This document shows, one piece after another, positions 1 through 58,662 of a stretch of 64,000 nt of DNA. The position numbers and the translations under genes are program-made. The DNA comes from a virus. Its lineage: Duplodnaviria; Heunggongvirae; Uroviricota; Caudoviricetes. Every line of letters starts with the position of its first letter. Position 1 is the first letter of the stretch. The notes beneath the pieces were generated by a model, which was not told where the DNA came from, did no database searches, and was given only the letters and a program-made list of their open reading frames with translations. The stretch spans positions 53,276 to 117,275 of the IMG/VR virus record IMGVR_UViG_3300029862_000001; one strand, written 5' to 3'.

Positions 1-21
1 GGAGAGGGAGGGCACTCTCTT

Positions 22-272
22 CCAACAAGATTAAGACTTACAGCGTTTTAAAACAGTATTCTCTACCAACAAGATTAAGACTTACAGCGTTTTAAAACAG
101 TATTCTGTAGGGTTTACCAACAAAATAAAGTATGATAGCGTTTTAAAACAGTATTCTCTTCCAACAAGATTAAGACTTACAGCGTTTTAAAACATCATTC
201 TCTTCCAACAAAATAAAGTATGATAGCGTTACCAACAAAATAAAGTATGATAGCGTTTTAAAACAGTATTCC
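22..272. repeat. Tandem direct-repeat array (~6 units of 41-44 bp in two alternating subtypes, each carrying the palindrome GTTTTAAAAC)
   Basis: Units at 22-64, 66-106, 117-159, 161-203, 205-230 (partial) and 232-272. Subtype A is ccaacaagattaagacttacagcgttttaaaacagtattct; subtype B is ccaacaaaataaagtatgatagcgttttaaaacagtattct. Units are contiguous with no unique spacers. Confidence 0.85.
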
Positions 273-319
273 ATAGGCTGGTAGTAAGTGAAATGTTTAA
301 CAATTAAAACATAAACAAC

Positions 320-526
320 ATGAACGTAGACTTTGCGCCTGACTTAGATTTGAGTAAGGAGGTAGAAGGTTTTATTTTTGGGGTGAAAGGAATAGAAGGT
401 AGTGATGGTATAGTATATGCTATTACAGTTGTGATAGGTGTATTTTTTTATGATTGTTATAAGGATAAATGTTTGTTATCGCGTAGTGATAGTTGTATAG
501 AACAGGCTGCCATAGAGGGGGAGTAG
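320..526 (+). CDS. hypothetical protein (68 aa)
   Basis: ATG at 320 immediately downstream of the repeat array; A-rich upstream leader; no recognisable motifs. Confidence 0.3.
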   Translation: MNVDFAPDLDLSKEVEGFIFGVKGIEGSDGIVYAITVVIGVFFYDCYKDKCLLSRSDSCIEQAAIEGE

Positions 527-714
527 GCGGCGCCTTGGGCTAAGGCCTGCGGTTGTAGGTGGAACGTAGGTCGGAGCAGAGCCGGGACAGTTTGTTGTGG
601 AACTAAAAAAAATAAAAAGGAGGAGATAGCGATATGAAAAAAGGCATTTAAGATATTTTCTATTATGTTTGTCATAGAAATAGTGCTGATAGCTATTTTA
701 GATGCTATGGCGTA

Positions 715-841
715 AGTGAGAAAAATTTCTTCATTAATTTTCTTATGCTTTAGACAGAGTGCTCCCGTCTGCGAAGATCGGAGCACTTGCTTTATGGGAT
801 TCATGGTGCGGTAGGTCGGTTCGATTCCGGCGATCTCACAC
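715..841 (+). ncRNA. tRNA-like element (T-arm GGTTCGATTCC plus acceptor-like 3' strand closed by a distal GTGAGA/TCTCAC stem)
   Basis: Canonical T-arm gtcgg-ttcgatt-ccggc at 815-831, then gatctcaca. The 5' partner gtgaga lies at 716-721. A full cloverleaf could not be folded by eye. The 3' ~45 nt are near-identical to the element at 1607-1689. Ends 28 nt before the start codon at 869. Confidence 0.4.
759..786 (+). other. Hairpin with conserved 12-nt loop GTCTGCGAAGAT (7-bp stem gtgctcc/ggagcac)
   Basis: Read directly from sequence. The same loop sequence recurs in the terminator hairpin at 5399-5426 with a different stem. Confidence 0.6.
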
Positions 842-868
842 AACATTAAAAACAAAGGAGGAAAGAAA

Positions 869-1216
869 ATGAAAGATGGTATTACATTACATCCAGAACA
901 CGGATTGAATCCGTCTATAGAAGTCTGCATGATATGTGGCGAAGAGATGGGGATTGCTTTATTAGGGAATAACATCAAGGGGCAGGCGCCGCATCATATA
1001 TGCACGGGAGAGATATGTGACAATTGCAAAAAGATAATAGATGACGGAGGTTGTTTTATTATCGAAGTCGAGGATGGATCAGATCAAAAGAATCCGTATC
1101 GTACAGGGAGATATTGCGCGATAAAGAAAGAGGCAGCAAAGAAAATACTTGGACAGGAACATAGTGTTGTGTACATGGAAAAGTCTGCATACAGTCAAAT
1201 AATACCACAAAAATAA
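869..1216 (+). CDS. hypothetical Cys-rich (CxxC...CxxC) zinc-ribbon protein
   Basis: ATG with strong RBS aaaggaggaaagaaaATG; MICGEE...CDNCKK motifs. Confidence 0.6.
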   Translation: MKDGITLHPEHGLNPSIEVCMICGEEMGIALLGNNIKGQAPHHICTGEICDNCKKIIDDGGCFIIEVEDGSDQKNPYRTGRYCAIKKEAAKKILGQEHSVVYMEKSAYSQIIPQK

Positions 1217-1224
1217 AGAAAGAT

Positions 1225-1548
1225 ATGTTTACAAAAGAAGAGCGATTATTCATTTGGAAAAAGGTATATGAGGAGATCGAAAGGTTAGAGGATGGGGATT
1301 ATATATGCGTCATGTTGAGAAATATAGTATTTAAGTTTTTCAGTACTCCTAAAAAAATAGAATCCATTTATGGGTTATATTTAGATAAACTGGTGAAAAC
1401 ATATTTCCCGGAATTGGAGGAAAAGAAAAGTATGACTACAGAACCAGAAGAAGAATGGAGGATATATGGATGGTTTGGTTGTATTAGTCCAGAAACGAAG
1501 GAGGTGAGGCTAAATATTGTGAAAGATATTATAAAAGAGTTAGAATAG
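1225..1548 (+). CDS. hypothetical protein (107 aa)
   Basis: ATG start; tightly packed after the previous gene. Confidence 0.5.
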   Translation: MFTKEERLFIWKKVYEEIERLEDGDYICVMLRNIVFKFFSTPKKIESIYGLYLDKLVKTYFPELEEKKSMTTEPEEEWRIYGWFGCISPETKEVRLNIVKDIIKELE

Positions 1549-1606
1549 TATTTTTGTTAATCTATTTTATTCATCAAATTAAGTTTTGGGTTTTGGCATG
1601 TCGGTT

Positions 1607-1689
1607 CGTGAGAATAGGCATGTCTATTTCTGTATCATAGAGGGATGGCGAGGCGTGCCGGTCCTGGTTCGATTCCGGGCATCTCACAA
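1607..1689 (+). ncRNA. tRNA-like element, second copy (~82 nt)
   Basis: T-arm cctgg-ttcgatt-ccggg at 1663-1679, then catctcaca; 5' gtgaga at 1608-1613 pairs with tctcac at 1682-1687. The 3' end and downstream leader (atctcacaaacaataaaacaaaagag) are near-identical to the element at 715-841. Precedes the start codon at 1709 by ~20 nt. Confidence 0.4.
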
Positions 1690-1708
1690 ACAATAAAACA
1701 AAAGAGTT

Positions 1709-1942
1709 ATGAGAATATACAAGAATGATATTATAAAGGCGTCAGCGATAAGCACCGGCGATGACAGGGGATTATTACTATGTTCAATAACGGATTCAGG
1801 CTTTACGTCTATAGCTGGTGTAATATCGGCTATTAAAGACAAGTTGCCAGGCAAAGATCATAAGAAGATGATTTTTGAAATACGGAATGATGGAAGAAAC
1901 GAATATGGCAGATATAATAATTGCGGAACAAAAGTATTGTAA
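1709..1942 (+). CDS. hypothetical protein (77 aa)
   Basis: ATG start after the tRNA-like element; no motifs. Confidence 0.4.
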   Translation: MRIYKNDIIKASAISTGDDRGLLLCSITDSGFTSIAGVISAIKDKLPGKDHKKMIFEIRNDGRNEYGRYNNCGTKVL

Positions 1943-1998
1943 TAAAGAGTAGAAAACAATATGTTTATGTAATATTAGTTTTTTCATTTTTATTGAAA

Positions 1999-2028
1999 GG
2001 AGCGCCGGCCTGTGAAGGTATGCGCTCT
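1999..2028. terminator. GC-rich hairpin ggagcgc/gcgctct, T-rich on the + side
   Basis: Stem 1999-2005 / 2022-2028. On + it is followed by tttgtatttatat and could terminate the 1709..1942 gene. On - it lies ~17 nt downstream of the orphan IS right-end copy. Confidence 0.4.
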
Positions 2029-2044
2029 TTGTATTTATATAATG

Positions 2045-2165
2045 CTTGACATACTCCCATCGCTAAAGCAAACGGGATTCTTGGATACAAACGTACGGAA
2101 CCCCCGGTTTTACAATCGTTGGAATCACCCGCACTTTCCAACTCGGAAATGCCCTTCCGAGGTCG
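2045..2165 (-). mobile_element. Orphan IS200/IS605 right-end (omega-RNA scaffold-like) copy with no adjacent tnpB
   Basis: ~120 bp, ~80% identical and co-linear with 63176-63292, which is the 3' end of tnpB plus its right end. Similarity stops at exactly the same point in both copies (cttgacatac...; on the - strand the element ends ...GTATGTCAAG). No surrounding TnpB-like coding sequence. Confidence 0.55.
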
Positions 2166-2252
2166 CAAGACAGGGCAAATATAATGTTTAATTATCATCT
2201 GACACATAAATGGGATCAGTATTACCATTAAATAACATAAAACAATAATAAT

Positions 2253-2507
2253 ATGACAGATAATAACATAGATGTGAATATCGTACCTGTAAAGAATGGT
2301 GCGAAACGTGTTGTGGTATCATATTACCATTATTCACGCAAGGACAAAAATCACATGAGTTCCCAAACGGATTACGTTTGGGAAACAAAGAATGAAGAAA
2401 TGTTTAAATACTTTGAGGCCAGGAGGACAAAAGTATTTTATAGTCAGATTCGTGCCATGTGTAGATTCTATGGCAAGAAAAATGTACGTAAATACAAAAA
2501 GTTATGA
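2253..2507 (+). CDS. hypothetical protein (84 aa)
   Basis: ATG start; basic C-terminus. Confidence 0.45.
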   Translation: MTDNNIDVNIVPVKNGAKRVVVSYYHYSRKDKNHMSSQTDYVWETKNEEMFKYFEARRTKVFYSQIRAMCRFYGKKNVRKYKKL

Positions 2508-3313
2508 TATTAAAAACGACAACCAACGAGTTTTGTTTCATTAACGTAAGTTTCTATGAAACAATAGCAGATCCTCGCTATTTCTTTGAACAAGATTATA
2601 AAGAGATGCCGGAATATGAGGAGGAATTAGATTTTGATTTTGATTCTTATTGCAATAAGTTTATTCCTTTTGTACAGGAATGGGCGAATAAGGTGGGCGA
2701 ACGCCTTTATGAATATGGTGTGAATAACATAAAGGTAATATCGGTCGGACATCCAAAAGATCGCAATTATGGTACTGATTGGATGGATGTAAGGGTAGAG
2801 TTTTGTGATGAATGGAGGCAAAAGATGTTATCTAACATTGGTAAGATTGTTAATGATGATAAATGCAAGAAGTATGCGGAGGCTAATTACCGGTCGGTAT
2901 CAGGATACATCTTTTTAGGACCTGAAGATTTAGAGGAATTTGAAAAGGAAATAATAGAAAGAAAGTCAGATTCGGGATATGATGTAACAATATTGTTAAA
3001 TATGTATCTAACTTTGGCTTTTGTAAAAGAATTTGGATTTAAAGCCGGAGAAGCATGGAGTGAAATAACAGAATATGCTTACGGATGTTTGTCGTATTCT
3101 GATTTTGCAACAACAGAGATGCTTATACCGGAAGGTTCGGAGCATTTATTCAAAGACATTTACACGGCAAAGGCCGACGAATTATATCATCATGTCCTGG
3201 ATAAATTCGGATGGGCGTGGCGTGATCCGAAATATAAGTCAGAAACAGAATTATGCGCGATGCTAAAGTGGGTAAAAGAAAAAGGCTTGACCATTGAAGA
3301 GTTAAGTATTTAA
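2504..3313 (+). CDS. hypothetical protein (269 aa)
   Basis: ATGA overlap with the upstream gene; long ORF with no competing frame. Confidence 0.6.
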   Translation: MILKTTTNEFCFINVSFYETIADPRYFFEQDYKEMPEYEEELDFDFDSYCNKFIPFVQEWANKVGERLYEYGVNNIKVISVGHPKDRNYGTDWMDVRVEFCDEWRQKMLSNIGKIVNDDKCKKYAEANYRSVSGYIFLGPEDLEEFEKEIIERKSDSGYDVTILLNMYLTLAFVKEFGFKAGEAWSEITEYAYGCLSYSDFATTEMLIPEGSEHLFKDIYTAKADELYHHVLDKFGWAWRDPKYKSETELCAMLKWVKEKGLTIEELSI

Positions 3314-5990: not shown

Positions 5991-6098
5991 AAAGATCGTA
6001 AAGTGCGAAGAACCCAGGTTCAGGGGAGACGCGGCCTGTTCTGCGTGGCGTAAGGCTACAGTAGATGAAATTATTGAACATTTTAAAAACAGATAATT

Positions 6099-42332: not shown

Positions 42333-42686
42333 TTACCGCCTCATCAGCAAGAGCAGAACCTCAGATGTTACCCATTTCTTAAATCTCTTAGCAGACTCTA
42401 ATTTTGAAGATAATATAAGAGAATATAAACCAGATTCATTAATTATTCTTATACTATCTATATATCTGGTTTTCAATATAGATCGTTTTACGCCCCATTG
42501 ATTATCAGATACTTGCAAAAGCATAGAATCATCATCATCTACATGTCTTTTTACCGCATCTTTAGCATTTATATATCCAAGAGATTTAGCCACATCTGAC
42601 GCCACAAACCAAACATCTCCTTTTGGATCTACAATAATTCTAAGCTCTCCAAAATCCGAACTTTCAAAAACAGAAACTTTATCCAT
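42333..42686 (-). CDS. Bro-N domain protein (phage antirepressor-like N-terminal domain)
   Basis: FGELRIIVDPKGDVWFVASDVAKSLGY...DDDDSMLLQV...GVKRSI matches the Bro-N consensus by eye. Confidence 0.55.
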   Translation of the reverse strand: MDKVSVFESSDFGELRIIVDPKGDVWFVASDVAKSLGYINAKDAVKRHVDDDDSMLLQVSDNQWGVKRSILKTRYIDSIRIINESGLYSLILSSKLESAKRFKKWVTSEVLLLLMRR

Positions 42687-42973
42687 GATAAAAAAAATAG
42701 GCCCAAAAGAGAATGTCAGATCCCACTATGACAAACCCTAATGAGCCAAAAATATCTTTCAACATCAAACAACCAGAGGTGGGATCTCGTTGTTCATTGT
42801 TTCTGGAGCAAAGATAGGAACAGGATTTTAAATAGCAAATATTTTAATACTTTTTAAATCAAACCAGGGCCCGCATCACTGCGAGCCCTGATCTACACTA
42901 ATCTAAACTAATACCATGAAAAACTTAAATCTAAAAACTAAAGAACACACAAATGTAGGAAAATATATGCCTT

Positions 42974-43171
42974 TCACAAAGAATCTGTATCCTGTTCTTT
43001 TGTGTGATTCAAGACATGGGATATAGTTCTGATACTTAATCCGGTTTGATTTTGTATCAGATTATAAATATAGGATTTTGAAACTACAGTTCTTAATTGA
43101 CCTAAATCATTCATAATGTTTTTATACATAAGATGAATGCTGTTGTTACATTTGATGGTACTGATTCTCAT
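42974..43171 (-). CDS. hypothetical protein (65 aa)
   Basis: Only ORF in a 700-bp AT-rich gap; hairpin cagggc...gccctg at 42859-42884 lies downstream. Confidence 0.3.
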   Translation of the reverse strand: MRISTIKCNNSIHLMYKNIMNDLGQLRTVVSKSYIYNLIQNQTGLSIRTISHVLNHTKEQDTDSL

Positions 43172-55846: not shown

Positions 55847-58662
55847 TATTTGGTCCTCCTTCTTCTTTTAATTTCATCATCTTCTTCATTTAAACTTTTC
55901 AAGTAAGGTGTAGAATAATCACCCATATTCATCACATCCTGATTACCTTGAACGTAAATAATTTGACCACTTGGAAGCATTCTCATATTCGGAGCTATGG
56001 AAGCTATGGTATTCAACGATGTACGAACATTGAACTTATTCTGTATCTCGCTGTTTATGCTATCATAATAACGAGCAAGATTTTCATCCCTTATAGCCAT
56101 AGCTTTCAACAACCCAGATTCATAACGTTGCCTTTCTGCTATGTTCTTATCATCTGTCTGAACATAAGCCATTTCATTGAACCTGTCAGCTTCGTTTATT
56201 TGCCTTGCGTTATTGAAATTTACTTCATTAACGTACTTGGCTATATTGCTTCCAGCTATGGCGTTCATATTAGCCAGAATAGCAGCCCGCTGGGAGTCGG
56301 GCACGTCACCTACTGCGTCTAACTGAGCCGATGTCGCACGGTTGAGCTCGTTGATATACTGATCAGCAGATTGAAGAACCGGGTCTATTCTCGGAGCCTG
56401 ATGTCTTTCCAGGCCTTCTATCTCCAAGCCAGTGTCAAGGGTTCTCAGCATTTCCGGGAAGATAGGACCGAACGCTGCCGGCCGCCCCTGTCTTTTAGTT
56501 CCGTTGTCTTCAACCACCTCCTCTGTATCGGTGTCGGTTACAGTCGTGGGTGTATCGGTTTTCGATTTTACTTCTATCCTTCCAGGAGATCCAATATTAG
56601 GTGGTGTAAGACCTGGTGCTATGGGACCGGCCTCAATAGGCTTCATTTCTGGTTTAACAGACTCAAGAACGAAGTCTATTTCCGGCATTAACCCACTATC
56701 TCTTAAAGCAACAAACTTATTATAATCGGAGCCCAGAATCTTCTTAGCGGCATCAGATTTATCACCAAATAAGTCAACATAATTCTTTATCCCTTTTTCG
56801 TTTAACAATCTTTTTTGCTCTGCCGAAACAACGTCCAACCCATAATAAGAACGAGTAGCTGTTGTCTGACCAAACTTATCATCTACGGCAAATGAATTAT
56901 AAGCCTGATTCCCTCCGTAGCTTCCGGCGTCCTGGCCCCAGAATCCGTACTCATCTCTGAATTTCTTGGCTGCATCAGCATTCGTGATAGCGCCTACATC
57001 AGCTAACGCCCACAATGCATTTAATTGCCTGTTATATCCTTTCTGAAAACCTTCTGTATCAAAATCACCATCCGTATTGTACTTGTTAGCCCATCGGTTT
57101 ACATCAAGCAAATTAGATACCGCCTTATCATTTACCCTTCCGTATCCTAAATTGCTTCTATGTTGTAGATTCTGATTGGCATTGACACTGGAATCGGGAT
57201 TAAGAATCTGCTCACGACCACTAACATCAGACATAGTCATATTAAGAGTTCGTCCAAATAACTGATTGATAAGCTTATTGTAGCCGATAGCATTCTTTCT
57301 AAGTTCCTCCAGCTCCTTCTGAGTAGGTCCACCTTCAGCCATTTTCCTGGTTTGCTTAACATACTCGTCATATATCCAGTTCTTGGCATCTGATTCTGCA
57401 ATATTAAAAGCCTTGGCTTGTTTCTTTACCTGATTCAGATCAACAACCCCGCCATCCCTGAAGAAAGCATCCATCTTCTCGTTACGCTTAGATTCTTCCT
57501 GTTTGCCATAAACGATTTCAGCGAAAGAACGAAATTGTGCTTCAAGCTCGTCTATCTCTTTCTGGTTTTCATTGACGTACTTGGAAAGAATAGAAGCATT
57601 AAGATTAGATGTATTTTTATCTTTTACATCTTCATTTTTCTCTAATCTCTTATATACACGCTCCTGATCTTCGTACTTATCAGACAAACCAATCTTCTTC
57701 TTATATCGATCAAGAAGTGCAGCATACGTATCTTTAGACGTTGCCTTAATACCGTAGTTTTCTCTAACGTAAGAGGCGAACTCATCATCTATCTTACGAT
57801 AATCGGAAACAATATAAGCTTCCGGTAAATCAACTGGCGTGCCTCCATTCTCATGCCTGTTTCCTTTAGCTTCCATAGGCCCCACTGAATCAGGCGTCAG
57901 CACATACTCGCCTTTCTCTATCTCTACGTTAGCATTATCCTCCATAGATTTAGGAAGAGGATAAATATATTCGCCGGTCATATCAGACGTATCCATCTTC
58001 TGACCGTTACCTAAATTCACGCCACCACCTTCACGTTCCCACTTGATGAATTGCTGACGACGCTCCTTGGCAAGTTTTTCCCTTGCAGCCTGCTCGTCTC
58101 TGCTGGCAGCATATGCAGCAGATGAAGCTCCCATGATATTACGGGTAAGACCTAATCCTAAACTAACACCAGATAAGGTAGCTTGAGCCACGTTAGCGCC
58201 CACCTTATTACCAGCTCGTATCCTGCCAAGGCTGGATCCGAACATCTGAGCTCCGCTGGTTAGGTCGGGTGAGTAATATGGGATAGTCATAGGATCGAGA
58301 GGATTTCCATCCTGTGATCGCTTTTCTTTTGATTGATTTTCTTCTTTATCAACACTAACAATAGTTCCTTTGGGCATAGACTTAGGATCGAACGTATTGT
58401 TATTACTTACATTCATAGTCGAAATAGAAGGTTCTTGCCTTTTTATAGTAGAATAGTCAGGACCTATAATATTGTCAAATCCCGCCTCCATCATGTCTAT
58501 TTCCGAATTTATCTCACTCATACCAGGAACATTGGACATATCCATATCAATATAAGGATTAGATGTCGTATCAGCCTGTTGTGTAACATCCTGAACACTA
58601 CCACCAGGAGCGAATACCGGACGATTTTTTATGATTCGTAATCTCATATCATCTTTTTTCAC
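55846..58662 (-). CDS. large structural protein (938 aa)
   Basis: ATG start; uninterrupted 2.8-kb ORF. Confidence 0.7.
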   Translation of the reverse strand: MKKDDMRLRIIKNRPVFAPGGSVQDVTQQADTTSNPYIDMDMSNVPGMSEINSEIDMMEAGFDNIIGPDYSTIKRQEPSISTMNVSNNNTFDPKSMPKGTIVSVDKEENQSKEKRSQDGNPLDPMTIPYYSPDLTSGAQMFGSSLGRIRAGNKVGANVAQATLSGVSLGLGLTRNIMGASSAAYAASRDEQAAREKLAKERRQQFIKWEREGGGVNLGNGQKMDTSDMTGEYIYPLPKSMEDNANVEIEKGEYVLTPDSVGPMEAKGNRHENGGTPVDLPEAYIVSDYRKIDDEFASYVRENYGIKATSKDTYAALLDRYKKKIGLSDKYEDQERVYKRLEKNEDVKDKNTSNLNASILSKYVNENQKEIDELEAQFRSFAEIVYGKQEESKRNEKMDAFFRDGGVVDLNQVKKQAKAFNIAESDAKNWIYDEYVKQTRKMAEGGPTQKELEELRKNAIGYNKLINQLFGRTLNMTMSDVSGREQILNPDSSVNANQNLQHRSNLGYGRVNDKAVSNLLDVNRWANKYNTDGDFDTEGFQKGYNRQLNALWALADVGAITNADAAKKFRDEYGFWGQDAGSYGGNQAYNSFAVDDKFGQTTATRSYYGLDVVSAEQKRLLNEKGIKNYVDLFGDKSDAAKKILGSDYNKFVALRDSGLMPEIDFVLESVKPEMKPIEAGPIAPGLTPPNIGSPGRIEVKSKTDTPTTVTDTDTEEVVEDNGTKRQGRPAAFGPIFPEMLRTLDTGLEIEGLERHQAPRIDPVLQSADQYINELNRATSAQLDAVGDVPDSQRAAILANMNAIAGSNIAKYVNEVNFNNARQINEADRFNEMAYVQTDDKNIAERQRYESGLLKAMAIRDENLARYYDSINSEIQNKFNVRTSLNTIASIAPNMRMLPSGQIIYVQGNQDVMNMGDYSTPYLKSLNEEDDEIKRRRRTK

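What the first reader, a model, noticed from the sequence alone, without database searches (positions are those of the whole stretch)
1..290. Tandem 43-bp repeat array with GTTTTAAAAC palindromes at the window start
Six contiguous units in two alternating subtypes; every unit carries a perfect 10-bp palindrome, and there are no unique spacers. This looks like iterons of a replication origin, a regulator-binding operator array, or part of a terminal repeat. Its place directly upstream of the early gene block suits an origin or early-promoter control region. A degenerate echo of the conserved half (cattttaaaaacagataatt) occurs at ~6075.
Basis: seen in the sequence. Interest (0 to 1): 0.55.

Follow-up and report, generated by a model that had tools for sequence, protein, structure and literature searches.

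The report
Variable repeat array heading phage early genes
A real tandem repeat of 44-51-bp units lies just upstream of the first early gene of an uncultured gut "epsilon crAss-like" phage; all close relatives keep it in the same place and direction, its copy number changes rapidly, and it is most likely a control site for early transcription, with no positive support for a replication origin and clear evidence against a terminal repeat.

Summary
The array is real (window 20-280) but less regular than described. It has six units in the order A-A-B-A-B(truncated)-B, spaced 44, 51, 44, 44 and 27 bp. Five of the six carry GTTTTAAAAC.

The window is an epsilon crAss-like phage, 91% identical to crAssE-Sib. 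More than 120 related contigs carry a homologous array at the same locus and in the same orientation, usually with 51-bp units and 1-9 copies. The motif occurs nowhere else in the window or in a complete 151-kb relative. Copy number differs between genomes whose flanks are identical, and partial units of 21-31 bp amplify on their own. Assemblies often break inside the array, which probably explains why the window starts there.

- **Conserved core:** it is asymmetric (TTCCAACAAAATT, then 17 bp, then TTTAAAACAG.AT..TGTAGG). The palindrome is perfect in only 54% of unit variants.
- **Terminal repeat:** rejected.
- **Origin:** no GC-skew switch, no AT-rich unwinding region and no adjacent initiator gene.
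- **Position:** the array ends about 40 bp before the first early gene (ATG 320), and no host-type promoter lies in between.

My best reading, at confidence about 0.35, is that the units are directional early-promoter or control modules. Function is unproven.

The parts
1..19 (+). Right-hand end of the purine-rich left boundary tract (GGAGAGGGAGGGCACTCTC). In relatives it reads GGAGAGGGGGAGAGGGAGGGCACTC and its length varies from 12 to 44 nt.
20..63 (+). Unit 1, type A, 44 bp. It lacks the GTAGGTT segment of the 51-bp consensus. Palindrome at 45-54.
64..114 (+). Unit 2, type A, full 51-bp form ending in TGTAGGGTT. Palindrome at 89-98. This is the best match to the clade consensus.
115..158 (+). 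Unit 3, type B, 44 bp. Palindrome at 140-149.
159..202 (+). Unit 4, type A, 44 bp, with the variant ACATCATTC after the core. Palindrome at 184-193.
203..229 (+). Unit 5, type B, truncated to 27 bp. It has block 1 plus the variable segment, and no TTTAAAAC core.
230..280 (+). Unit 6, type B, the terminal unit, ending in CCATAGGCTGG. Palindrome at 255-264.
292..319 (+). Conserved A-rich leader (AATGTTTAACAATTAAAACATAAACAAC) immediately before the ORF1 start codon.
320..526 (+). ORF1, the first gene of the early block. It is a real coding sequence: differences among relatives fall on synonymous third codon positions. It is 68 aa here and 86-101 aa in relatives.

Best explanation
The array is a set of duplicated, directional cis-acting modules that control transcription of the early gene block.

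Each unit carries two conserved blocks whose centres are 24 bp apart. These are TTCCAACAAAATT and, after a 17-bp partly free spacer, (CAG.G)TTTAAAACAG.AT, followed by TGTAGG. All units point toward ORF1. I propose that each unit is an early promoter, or a promoter with its regulator site. It would be read by something other than the host sigma-A holoenzyme, most plausibly the virion-delivered RNA polymerase homologue reported for this phage group. Slippage or unequal recombination adds and removes whole or partial units and so changes dosage, and selection keeps at least one unit.

Shown here: the anatomy, the single locus, the fixed polarity, conservation across the clade, rapid copy-number change, and the position at the head of the early block.

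Inferred: protein binding, promoter activity, and which polymerase is involved.
For: 1. Position. The array ends about 40 bp before the ATG of ORF1 (320). ORF1 is truly coding and opens a run of same-strand genes that extends to about 32 kb.
2. Upstream context. In relatives a conserved small gene lies upstream on the same strand, and in one relative the PhageTerm-predicted genome start lies about 620 bp upstream.
3. No host-type promoter near the array. The Bacteroidetes motif TTTG-N19-21-TAnnTTTG is absent between the array and ORF1. The one match nearby (349-380) lies inside ORF1 and varies synonymously. The same phage does carry canonical host-type matches to this motif elsewhere, upstream of the antirepressor-like ORF at 42.8-43.0 kb.
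4. Unit geometry. The two conserved blocks are 24 bp apart centre to centre, with a free 7-10-nt segment in the spacer, a layout like -35/-10 elements.
5. The conserved element is asymmetric. TTTAAAACAG is present in 100 of 124 distinct units, while the perfect palindrome is present in only 67 of 124. Orientation is fixed in every locus.
6. Spacing between units is not conserved (44, 50, 51, 27 and 21 bp), so the units act independently rather than as a phased array.
7. At least one unit is kept in 47 of 48 loci that were found without reference to the motif.
8. A virion RNA polymerase homologue has been reported for crAssE-Sib (HHpred 95% to phi14:2 gp66, PMC11054128).
Against: - No transcription data exist for this uncultured group.
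- The motif occurs only at this locus. If it is a promoter, it is the only one of its class, with no dispersed copies before other early genes.
- It matches neither the sigma-70 nor the Bacteroidetes sigma-A consensus on the + strand.
- For the one crAss-like virion polymerase that has been studied (phi14:2), no early promoter motif was found.
- An earlier survey found no RNA polymerase block in the epsilon group (PMC7886860). I could not confirm the polymerase by sequence: phmmer of the four large virion proteins against PDB sequences found nothing.
- Left-half partial units (block 1 only) amplify up to 13 times without the core. That pattern looks more like binding-site or iteron behaviour than whole-promoter duplication.
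Confidence: 0.35

Rival explanations
1. Iterons of the phage replication origin. A phage initiator would bind the directly repeated asymmetric units and recruit the phage DnaB-like helicase, the primase and host Pol III.
For: - The units are direct repeats at a single locus in a non-coding region.
- The conserved core is asymmetric, as in plasmid iterons.
- The left-half partial units amplify with a 21-22-bp period, about two helical turns, which is the classical iteron spacing.
- The phage has no DNA polymerase of its own and must recruit the host replisome (PMC7886860).
- A very conserved 745-bp non-coding or small-gene region adjoins the array.
Against: - GC skew does not change sign at the array in the complete relative. 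The switches lie at 17.4 and 110.8 kb, although skew here follows gene orientation and so is weak evidence.
- There is no AT-rich unwinding element beside the array. The maximum is 78% AT in 40-nt windows, below the locus 95th percentile.
- No unit type consistently carries a DnaA box (my reading of the unit lists).
- The nearest replication genes are 15-21 kb away, and the flanking proteins have no recognisable DNA-binding or initiator domain.
- Copy number of 1-9 and variable spacing are unusual for cooperative iteron sets.
Confidence: 0.2
2. Operator array. The units would be binding sites for a phage repressor or another early regulator, for example the small LacI-type HTH protein at window 42974-43171, which shuts off or tunes the early operon during a carrier or pseudolysogenic state.
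For: - The position immediately upstream of the first early gene.
- A palindromic core is present in many units.
- The clade encodes a conserved repressor and antirepressors (PMC11054128; window ORFs).
- Operator number can vary without loss of function.
Against: - Dyad symmetry is not the conserved feature. Only 54% of unit variants keep the 10-bp palindrome, and 31% keep only TTTAAA.
- The half-site order GTTTT|AAAAC is the reverse of the AAAC|GTTT arrangement that I recall for LacI-family operators. This rests on my own knowledge and was not tested.
- The conserved footprint spans about 40 bp and is strongly asymmetric.
- I could not test whether the array co-occurs with the repressor, because no repressor-less Epsilonduovirus locus was recovered.
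Confidence: 0.13
3. A packaging or terminus-associated element. The units would be small-terminase or accessory-protein binding sites belonging to a pac region near the physical genome end.
For: - The PhageTerm-predicted start of crAssE-Sib (p = 1.5e-22) lies about 620 bp upstream of the array.
- The interval between the two is unusually conserved and free of indels.
- The units are single-locus, directional repeats, like the lambda cosB R sites or the SPP1 pac boxes (established knowledge).
Against: - 620 bp is far from the cut for known pac and cos recognition sites.
- The terminase genes are about 21 kb away.
- No related contig ends at the PhageTerm position, and contig ends scatter inside the array, as expected for repeat-induced breaks.
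- The terminus rests on a single unreplicated prediction, and the paper does not state a packaging class.
Confidence: 0.08
4. A largely neutral, unstable minisatellite, possibly distorted by assembly, seeded on a single functional site. Under this reading the repetition itself has no function.
For: - Arrays differ by exactly one 51-bp unit between genomes with identical 800-bp flanks.
- Partial units of 21-31 bp expand in separate lineages.
- Many assemblies break inside the array.
- One-copy arrays exist, for example L026.
Against: - The conserved positions stay nearly invariant across 124 distinct unit variants while the spacer positions vary freely.
- Two or more copies are the rule: the mode is 2-3, and few distinct arrays have a single core.
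- Partial-unit junctions share only 3-5 nt. In my judgement that is too short to be a de Bruijn mis-join, so the variants are probably real.
Confidence: 0.12
5. A centromere-like partition site of the F sopC type, serving plasmid-like carriage, or alternatively an RNA-level element such as a CRISPR-repeat mimic or a protein sponge.
For: - The array formally resembles sopC: 43-bp tandem units, each with an inverted repeat, no spacers, and one unit sufficient for function (established knowledge).
- The authors of the crAssE-Sib paper speculate about plasmid-like persistence.
- A permuted unit begins GTTTTAAAACAG, as many CRISPR repeats do.
Against: - No ParA- or ParB-like protein was found near the array, among the window proteins tested, or among ten candidate proteins of the relative.
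- The palindrome is not conserved.
- No RNA hairpin is shared by the unit types, and the array as a whole folds no better than shuffled sequence (z = -1.39).
- None of 120 spacer-containing metagenomic arrays that carry the core shares more than 10-12 nt with the unit.
- Rfam finds nothing.
Confidence: 0.05

Closest known systems
Clusters of early promoters near the leading genome end of podoviruses (T7 A1/A2/A3 for host RNAP; N4 P1-P3 for virion RNAP)
   Same: Several modules in the same orientation lie within about 1 kb of a predicted genome end, directly upstream of the early genes and pointing into the genome. In T7 the A1-A3 promoters lie roughly 500-750 bp from the left end (from my own knowledge). 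Here the array lies about 620-840 bp from the predicted end in crAssE-Sib.
   Different: The T7 promoters are independent sigma-70 consensus promoters, not sequence repeats. The N4 promoters depend on a hairpin with a 5-7-bp stem. The units here match no host consensus and share no hairpin. Copy number varies from 1 to 9, and no promoter activity has been shown.
Iterons of phage and plasmid replication origins (lambda ori, P1 oriR, R6K, pSC101)
   Same: Direct repeats at a single locus, with an asymmetric conserved core. The left-half partial units expand with a 21-22-bp period.
   Different: The full unit is 44-51 bp rather than 17-22 bp. There is no adjacent AT-rich unwinding element, no DnaA boxes, no neighbouring or overlapping initiator gene, and no skew switch. 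Copy number is not fixed.
F-plasmid sopC centromere (12 tandem 43-bp repeats, each with a 7-bp inverted repeat)
   Same: Unit length, tandem arrangement without spacers, a short palindrome inside each unit, and tolerance of copy-number change down to one unit.
   Different: No partition ATPase or centromere-binding protein was detected. The palindrome is not the conserved part of the unit. An additional asymmetric block gives the units a fixed polarity toward a gene start.
Lambdoid OR/OL operator triplets
   Same: Repeated sites, partly palindromic, immediately upstream of the early genes, in a phage that encodes a repressor and antirepressors.
   Different: Operators are 17-bp symmetric sites spaced 3-7 bp apart and overlapping a host promoter. 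Here the footprint is about 40 bp and asymmetric, spacing and number vary, and no host promoter is present.

Membership tests
Terminal repeat (DTR) of the phage genome | The same sequence is present at both ends of the genome, or at two loci in a complete record. | tested here: not met
   There is one locus only in the complete 151-kb relative. The array is internal in 127 loci.
Terminal repeat (DTR) of the phage genome | Contig or genome ends fall at a fixed coordinate. | tested here: not met
   Contig ends fall at many different positions inside the array. One full-length contig has both ends in the array with a 22-bp overlap.
Replication-origin iterons | Three or more direct repeats of an initiator-binding site at one locus. 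| tested here: met
   There are 1-9 full units plus partial units at a single locus. Binding itself was not tested.
Replication-origin iterons | An adjacent AT-rich DNA-unwinding element. | tested here: not met
   40-nt windows flanking the array reach at most 78% AT, below the 95th percentile of the locus. The left flank is GC-rich.
Replication-origin iterons | The initiator gene is adjacent to or overlaps the repeats. | tested here: not met
   Flanking proteins have no initiator or DNA-binding domains. The replication genes lie at 15-21 kb.
Replication-origin iterons | A strand-composition (GC-skew) switch at the site. | tested here: not met
   The sign changes lie only at 17.4 and 110.8 kb of OR575929, and skew is negative on both sides of the array. 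This is weak evidence, because skew follows gene orientation.
Replication-origin iterons | Origin activity or initiator binding. | not testable with these tools
   This needs a plasmid replication assay, marker-frequency analysis or EMSA.
Host sigma-A (Bacteroidetes) promoter | A -7 box TAnnTTTG, with a -33 TTTG 19-21 bp upstream, on the strand of the downstream gene. | tested here: not met
   There is no + strand match in the array or in 272-319. The match at 349-380 lies inside coding ORF1 and is not conserved as a promoter. Minus-strand TAATTTTG is present in only about half of the unit types, and in none of the window's units.
N4-type virion-RNAP hairpin promoter | A conserved hairpin with a 5-7-bp stem in each promoter. 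| tested here: not met
   Only one unit type folds (-9.6 kcal/mol). The others do not (-0.8 to -4.8, z between -0.5 and +0.75).
crAss-type virion-RNAP early promoter | Transcript 5' ends at the motif, with rifampicin-resistant transcription. | not testable with these tools
   No promoter motif has been defined for this enzyme, and there are no transcript data for the epsilon group.
Symmetric operator array (dimeric repressor) | A dyad-symmetric site conserved in every copy. | tested here: not met
   The perfect 10-bp palindrome is present in 67 of 124 distinct units, while the asymmetric TTTAAAACAG is present in 100 of 124.
sopC-type partition centromere | A cognate ParA-type ATPase and a centromere-binding protein encoded by the element. 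| tested here: not met
   No such domains were found in the flanking genes, the window ORFs or candidate proteins of the relative. Remote homologues could have been missed.
CRISPR-repeat mimic / mini-array | The unit matches a host CRISPR repeat over most of its length. | tested here: inconclusive
   120 spacer-containing metagenomic arrays that carry TTTAAAACAG share only 10-12 nt with the unit.
Protein-coding repeat | One open reading frame maintained through the units. | tested here: not met
   Periods of 44, 50 and 27 bp are not multiples of 3. Different unit types are open in different frames, from my frame-by-frame reading of the consensus units. No ORF crosses the array in the window.

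The most novel reading that the evidence does not exclude
The units would be tandem early promoters recognised by the divergent virion-packaged RNA polymerase of epsilon crAss-like phages. That would make TTCCAACAAAATT-N17-TTTAAAACAG the first recognisable promoter motif for the crAss-type two-barrel virion polymerase, for which no early promoter consensus could be found in the only studied system (phi14:2). Unit copy number would then act as a fast-evolving dial on early gene dosage.
Probability: 0.12. Interest if true: 0.7.

Novelty: new member of a known kind. Interest (0 to 1): 0.38.

Why it matters
Epsilon crAss-like phages are abundant in the human gut, have never been cultured, and have no mapped promoter, origin or packaging site.

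- **A defined target for experiments.** This array is the most conspicuous non-coding feature of their genomes. It is the top tandem repeat in a complete 151-kb relative. It marks the head of the early block and gives a short sequence that can be tested by EMSA, reporter assays, in-vitro transcription or 5'-end mapping in metatranscriptomes.
- **Practical consequences.** The array explains why many assemblies of these phages break at one place. It offers a hypervariable marker for strain tracking. At least one GenBank 'hypothetical protein' CDS laid over it (WOZ57410 in OR575929) is probably spurious.
- **If the units prove to be virion-polymerase promoters,** they would open the question of how crAss-type polymerases choose their start sites.

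Tried and rejected
1. **Host promoter at 349-380** (TTTG-N20-TATTTTTG). It looked significant: 4 composite matches in the window against 0.95 expected. However, it lies in ORF1, and its variation among relatives is synonymous third-position change, so it is coincidental.
2. **Minus-strand host promoters** (TAATTTTG, the reverse of CAAAATTA). Present in only about half of the unit types, and intact in none of the window's units.
3. **RNA or ssDNA structure.** There is no shared hairpin, the array folds no better than shuffled sequence (z = -1.39), and Rfam finds nothing.
4. **Coding repeat.** The frames are inconsistent.
5. **DnaA boxes.** TTTCCACA occurs in only a minority of unit types. IHF consensus: only the CAR-N4-TTR part is kept. 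Both come from my reading.
6. **ParA/ParB or an initiator next to the array.** None found.
7. **Comparable arrays in other crAss-like phages.** None in phi14:2, crAss001 or BS162P1.
8. **Virion polymerase by phmmer against PDB sequences.** Nothing found. A DxDxD pattern search gave only a DGDFD in the 938-aa protein.
9. **Genome-contig scan.** I mis-specified the spacer as N10 instead of N9.
10. **Search for the window's own contig** through its unique 27-bp junction. No hit.
11. **Search for a repressor-less sister genus** through divergent homologues of the 115-aa protein. This recovered only the same lineage or an unrelated PolB phage.
12. **Literature searches** for the motif and for the array. 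Nothing found.

Full report
**What is in the window.** Positions 20-280 hold six head-to-tail units with no unique spacers.

- Unit starts are 20, 64, 115, 159, 203 and 230, giving spacings of 44, 51, 44, 44 and 27 bp.
- There are two subtypes. They differ in a segment of about 10 nt: type A has CAAGATTAAGACTTACAG and type B has CAAAATAAAGTATGATAG. Their order is A-A-B-A-B'-B.
- Unit 5 is cut off after AGCGTT and lacks the palindrome, so five of the six units carry GTTTTAAAAC.
- The repeat is not a chance feature. It is the top TRF hit of the window (score 259), and its 20-nt core occurs five times against 0.05 expected.
- The 'echo' at 6079-6098 exists as a string, but it is the A-rich leader that abuts ATG 6099. 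It does not score as a unit.

**What genome this is.** Bases 292-3000 are 91% identical to phage crAssE-Sib (OR575929, 151,256 bp). That phage is an uncultured epsilon crAss-like phage from human gut (PMC11054128).

- The window has a + strand block of small early genes and replication genes (320 to about 32,200). It converges on a - strand block of very large virion proteins.
- In the complete relative, the block that starts at the array is preceded by another block on the same strand (PNK, NrnA-like, tRNAs, clamp, SSB). A terminator-like hairpin follows, and then the record's start point, which PhageTerm predicted with p = 1.5e-22.
- The array lies about 620-840 bp from that point.

**The array is a conserved feature of the clade.**

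- A protein-based search with the 115-aa gene at 869-1213 returned 176 related viral contigs.
- A motif-based search returned at least 120 stretches, all on contigs whose lengths are compatible with fragments or complete genomes of such phages, with one locus per genome.
- In 127 loci where both flanks are present there are 77 distinct arrays. The interval is 129-557 bp and holds 1-9 exact TTTAAAAC cores, most often 2-3, usually with a 50-51-bp period.
- Among 48 internal loci that were found without reference to the motif, 47 keep at least one exact core. The exception, L072, comes from a more divergent genome and has a degenerate array.
- More divergent homologues of the 115-aa protein (78% identity or less) still sit next to the same array.
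- Other crAss-like phages have nothing comparable: phi14:2, crAss001 and BS162P1.
- In OR575929 the array is the strongest tandem repeat of the whole genome.

**It is a single locus, and it is where assemblies break.**

- Position-weight scans with the full unit, the core, or block 1 alone find no other positive hit in the 64-kb window or in the 151-kb relative.
- 38 related loci begin at many different positions inside, or within a few hundred bases upstream of, the array.
- One 142,955-bp contig has one end entering the array from the early genes and the other end leaving it toward the upstream region, with a 22-bp overlap. This is what a circular or permuted genome looks like when an assembler breaks it at its only long tandem repeat.
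- The window probably begins there for the same reason, so its copy number and unit order may be incomplete. This is an inference.
- These results rule out a terminal repeat.

**Anatomy of a unit.** I aligned 124 distinct full units. The consensus is TTCCAACAAAATT-[MAR + about 7 free nt]-CAGYG(T)TTTAAAACAGYATTNTGTAGG-TTTT.

- Nearly invariant positions form two blocks whose centres are 24 bp apart (CAAAAT and TTTAAAAC, separated by 17 bp), plus TGTAG.
GTTTTAAAAC is perfect in 67 of 124 variants, and only TTTAAA survives in 39. The asymmetric TTTAAAACAG is present in 100 of 124.
- All units point the same way, toward ORF1.
- The window's 44-bp units lack GTAGGTT and instead repeat the last bases of the left boundary (CTCTT).

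**The array changes quickly.**

- Three flank haplotypes with identical 800-bp flanks carry arrays that differ by exactly one 51-bp unit.
- In separate genomes different sub-segments have expanded. A 21-bp left half (TTCCAACAAAATTCAACTTCC) reaches up to 13 copies, a 22-bp piece reaches six copies, and a 31-bp piece reaches five.
- The purine tract at the left boundary varies from 12 to 44 nt.
- By contrast, the 745 bp upstream are almost free of indels, and most columns are at least 97% conserved across 78 distinct sequences.

**What flanks it.**

- Downstream, ORF1 (320-526) is a real gene. Differences among relatives are synonymous third-position changes. This also disposes of a tempting Bacteroidetes promoter match at 349-380, which is simply codons.
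- Upstream, in relatives, a 56-61-aa hydrophobic ORF on the same strand shows a clear codon-periodic substitution pattern of 0.041, 0.007 and 0.118 for the three codon positions.
- No canonical host promoter lies between that gene and ORF1 on the + strand. The same phage does carry canonical matches to the host promoter motif elsewhere, upstream of the antirepressor-like ORF at 42.8-43.0 kb.

**Tests of the candidate functions.**

- *Origin.* In the complete relative, GC skew changes sign only where gene orientation flips (17.4 and 110.8 kb). It is negative on both sides of the array. No AT-rich unwinding region adjoins the array. The flanking proteins have no initiator or DNA-binding domains, and the replication genes lie 15-21 kb away. 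The 21-22-bp expansions of the left half remain an iteron-like trait.
- *Symmetric operator.* Weakened by the asymmetric conservation.
- *Partition site.* No ParA or ParB was found.
- *RNA element.* The unit types share no hairpin, the array does not fold better than shuffled sequence, and Rfam finds nothing.
- *CRISPR-repeat mimic.* None of 120 spacer-containing metagenomic arrays that carry the core resembles the unit beyond 10-12 nt.
- *Coding repeat.* Excluded by periods that are not multiples of three and by inconsistent frames.

**Most likely function.** Position, fixed polarity, a two-block geometry like -35/-10 elements, independence from inter-unit spacing, and the lack of any host-type promoter at the head of the early block together point to directional early-transcription modules.

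- These would be promoters, or promoters with a regulator site, used by something other than the host sigma-A holoenzyme.
- A candidate exists. The crAssE-Sib paper reports a virion RNA polymerase homologue (HHpred 95% probability to phi14:2 gp66). An earlier survey found no polymerase block in this group.
- I could not confirm the polymerase by plain sequence search.
- No early promoter motif is known for the one enzyme of this kind that has been studied.
- I put this reading at about 0.35, origin iterons at 0.2, an operator array at 0.13, a largely neutral minisatellite around one functional site at 0.12, a packaging element at 0.08, and the rest at 0.05. None of these has been demonstrated.

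**Novelty.** I found no description of this array in the searchable literature, and GenBank annotates a hypothetical CDS across it. It is a new example of a familiar kind of feature, tandem cis-acting repeats in a phage control region. Its interest is moderate, and would rise if it proves to be the first recognisable promoter for a crAss-type virion polymerase.

Noticed in passing
window 757-845: A structured non-coding element lies between ORF1 and the 115-aa gene. It consists of an 8-9-bp GC-rich hairpin (GAGTGCTCC...GGAGCACTT) followed by a tRNA-like T-arm (GTCGG-TTCGATT-CCGGC) and an acceptor-like tail. It folds at -35.9 kcal/mol (z = -2.5). ARAGORN and Rfam find nothing here or in relatives.
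   Followed up: partly
L097 4381-5125 (homologous to the DNA just left of the window start): The roughly 745 bp upstream of the array are nearly free of indels, and most columns are at least 97% conserved across 78 distinct sequences. The region holds two copies of GGTCTAAAACGAAAC, a terminator-like hairpin (GGCGG...CCGCC-TTTTT), two copies of CTTATTGTATTTTT and two copies of GGCGGTAGGGCGTGGG. The PhageTerm genome start of crAssE-Sib falls at its left edge. It may hold a pac site, an sRNA or an origin element.
   Followed up: partly
L097 4770-4937: A small hydrophobic ORF (56-61 aa, MWWFLLVADLYFLSVGIRSMLEYG...) just upstream of the array is truly coding. Its substitution rates by codon position are 0.041, 0.007 and 0.118. 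No family match was found.
   Followed up: partly
window 42809-42839 and 42950-42980 (- strand); ORFs 42974-43171 and 42333-42686: Two canonical Bacteroidetes promoter matches (TTTG-N19-21-TAnnTTTG) lie in front of a truncated BRO-N antirepressor-like ORF. Next to it is a 65-aa ORF with a LacI-type HTH signature (SIRTISHVLNH). These look like genes read by host RNAP inside the late block.
   Followed up: partly
L001 588-710 (OR575929 150547-150669, WOZ57410.1): GenBank annotates a 40-aa 'hypothetical protein' CDS that runs across the left boundary and the first unit of the array. It is probably spurious.
   Followed up: no
window 320-526: ORF1 is 68 aa in this window, against 86-101 aa in relatives. 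An internal stretch that includes part of a Cys-rich segment (CERCIFYDYYKDKC...) is missing or altered, so the gene may be decaying in this genome.
   Followed up: no
window 1-19; left boundary of the arrays in L026, L030, L032 and others: A G-rich purine tract (GGAGAGGGGGAGAGGGAGGG, expanded to 44 nt in some genomes) always precedes the first unit. It could form G-quadruplex or triplex DNA.
   Followed up: no
OR575929 2066-2176; L355 3020-3102: A second, smaller tandem repeat (31-bp period, about 2.6-3.6 copies) lies in a non-coding gap of the upstream gene block, about 2 kb on the other side of the predicted genome start.
   Followed up: no
window 55849-58662 (- strand), residue 531 of the 938-aa protein: This is one of three DxDxD-pattern hits among the large virion proteins (TDGDFDTEG), and the only one that contains a DFD triplet. 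It may be relevant to the disputed virion RNA polymerase of epsilon phages. phmmer against PDB sequences found nothing.
   Followed up: partly
L237, L252, L265, L273, L286 and others (metagenome contigs): Many unrelated CRISPR arrays have repeats that contain or begin with GTTT(T)AAAACAG. Examples are a Cas12a-type repeat, GTTTAAAACAGATAACAAATTTCTACTTTTGTAGAT, and 47-49-nt repeats of the form GTTGTG...ACAAC. The resemblance to the phage unit stops after 10-12 nt.
   Followed up: yes
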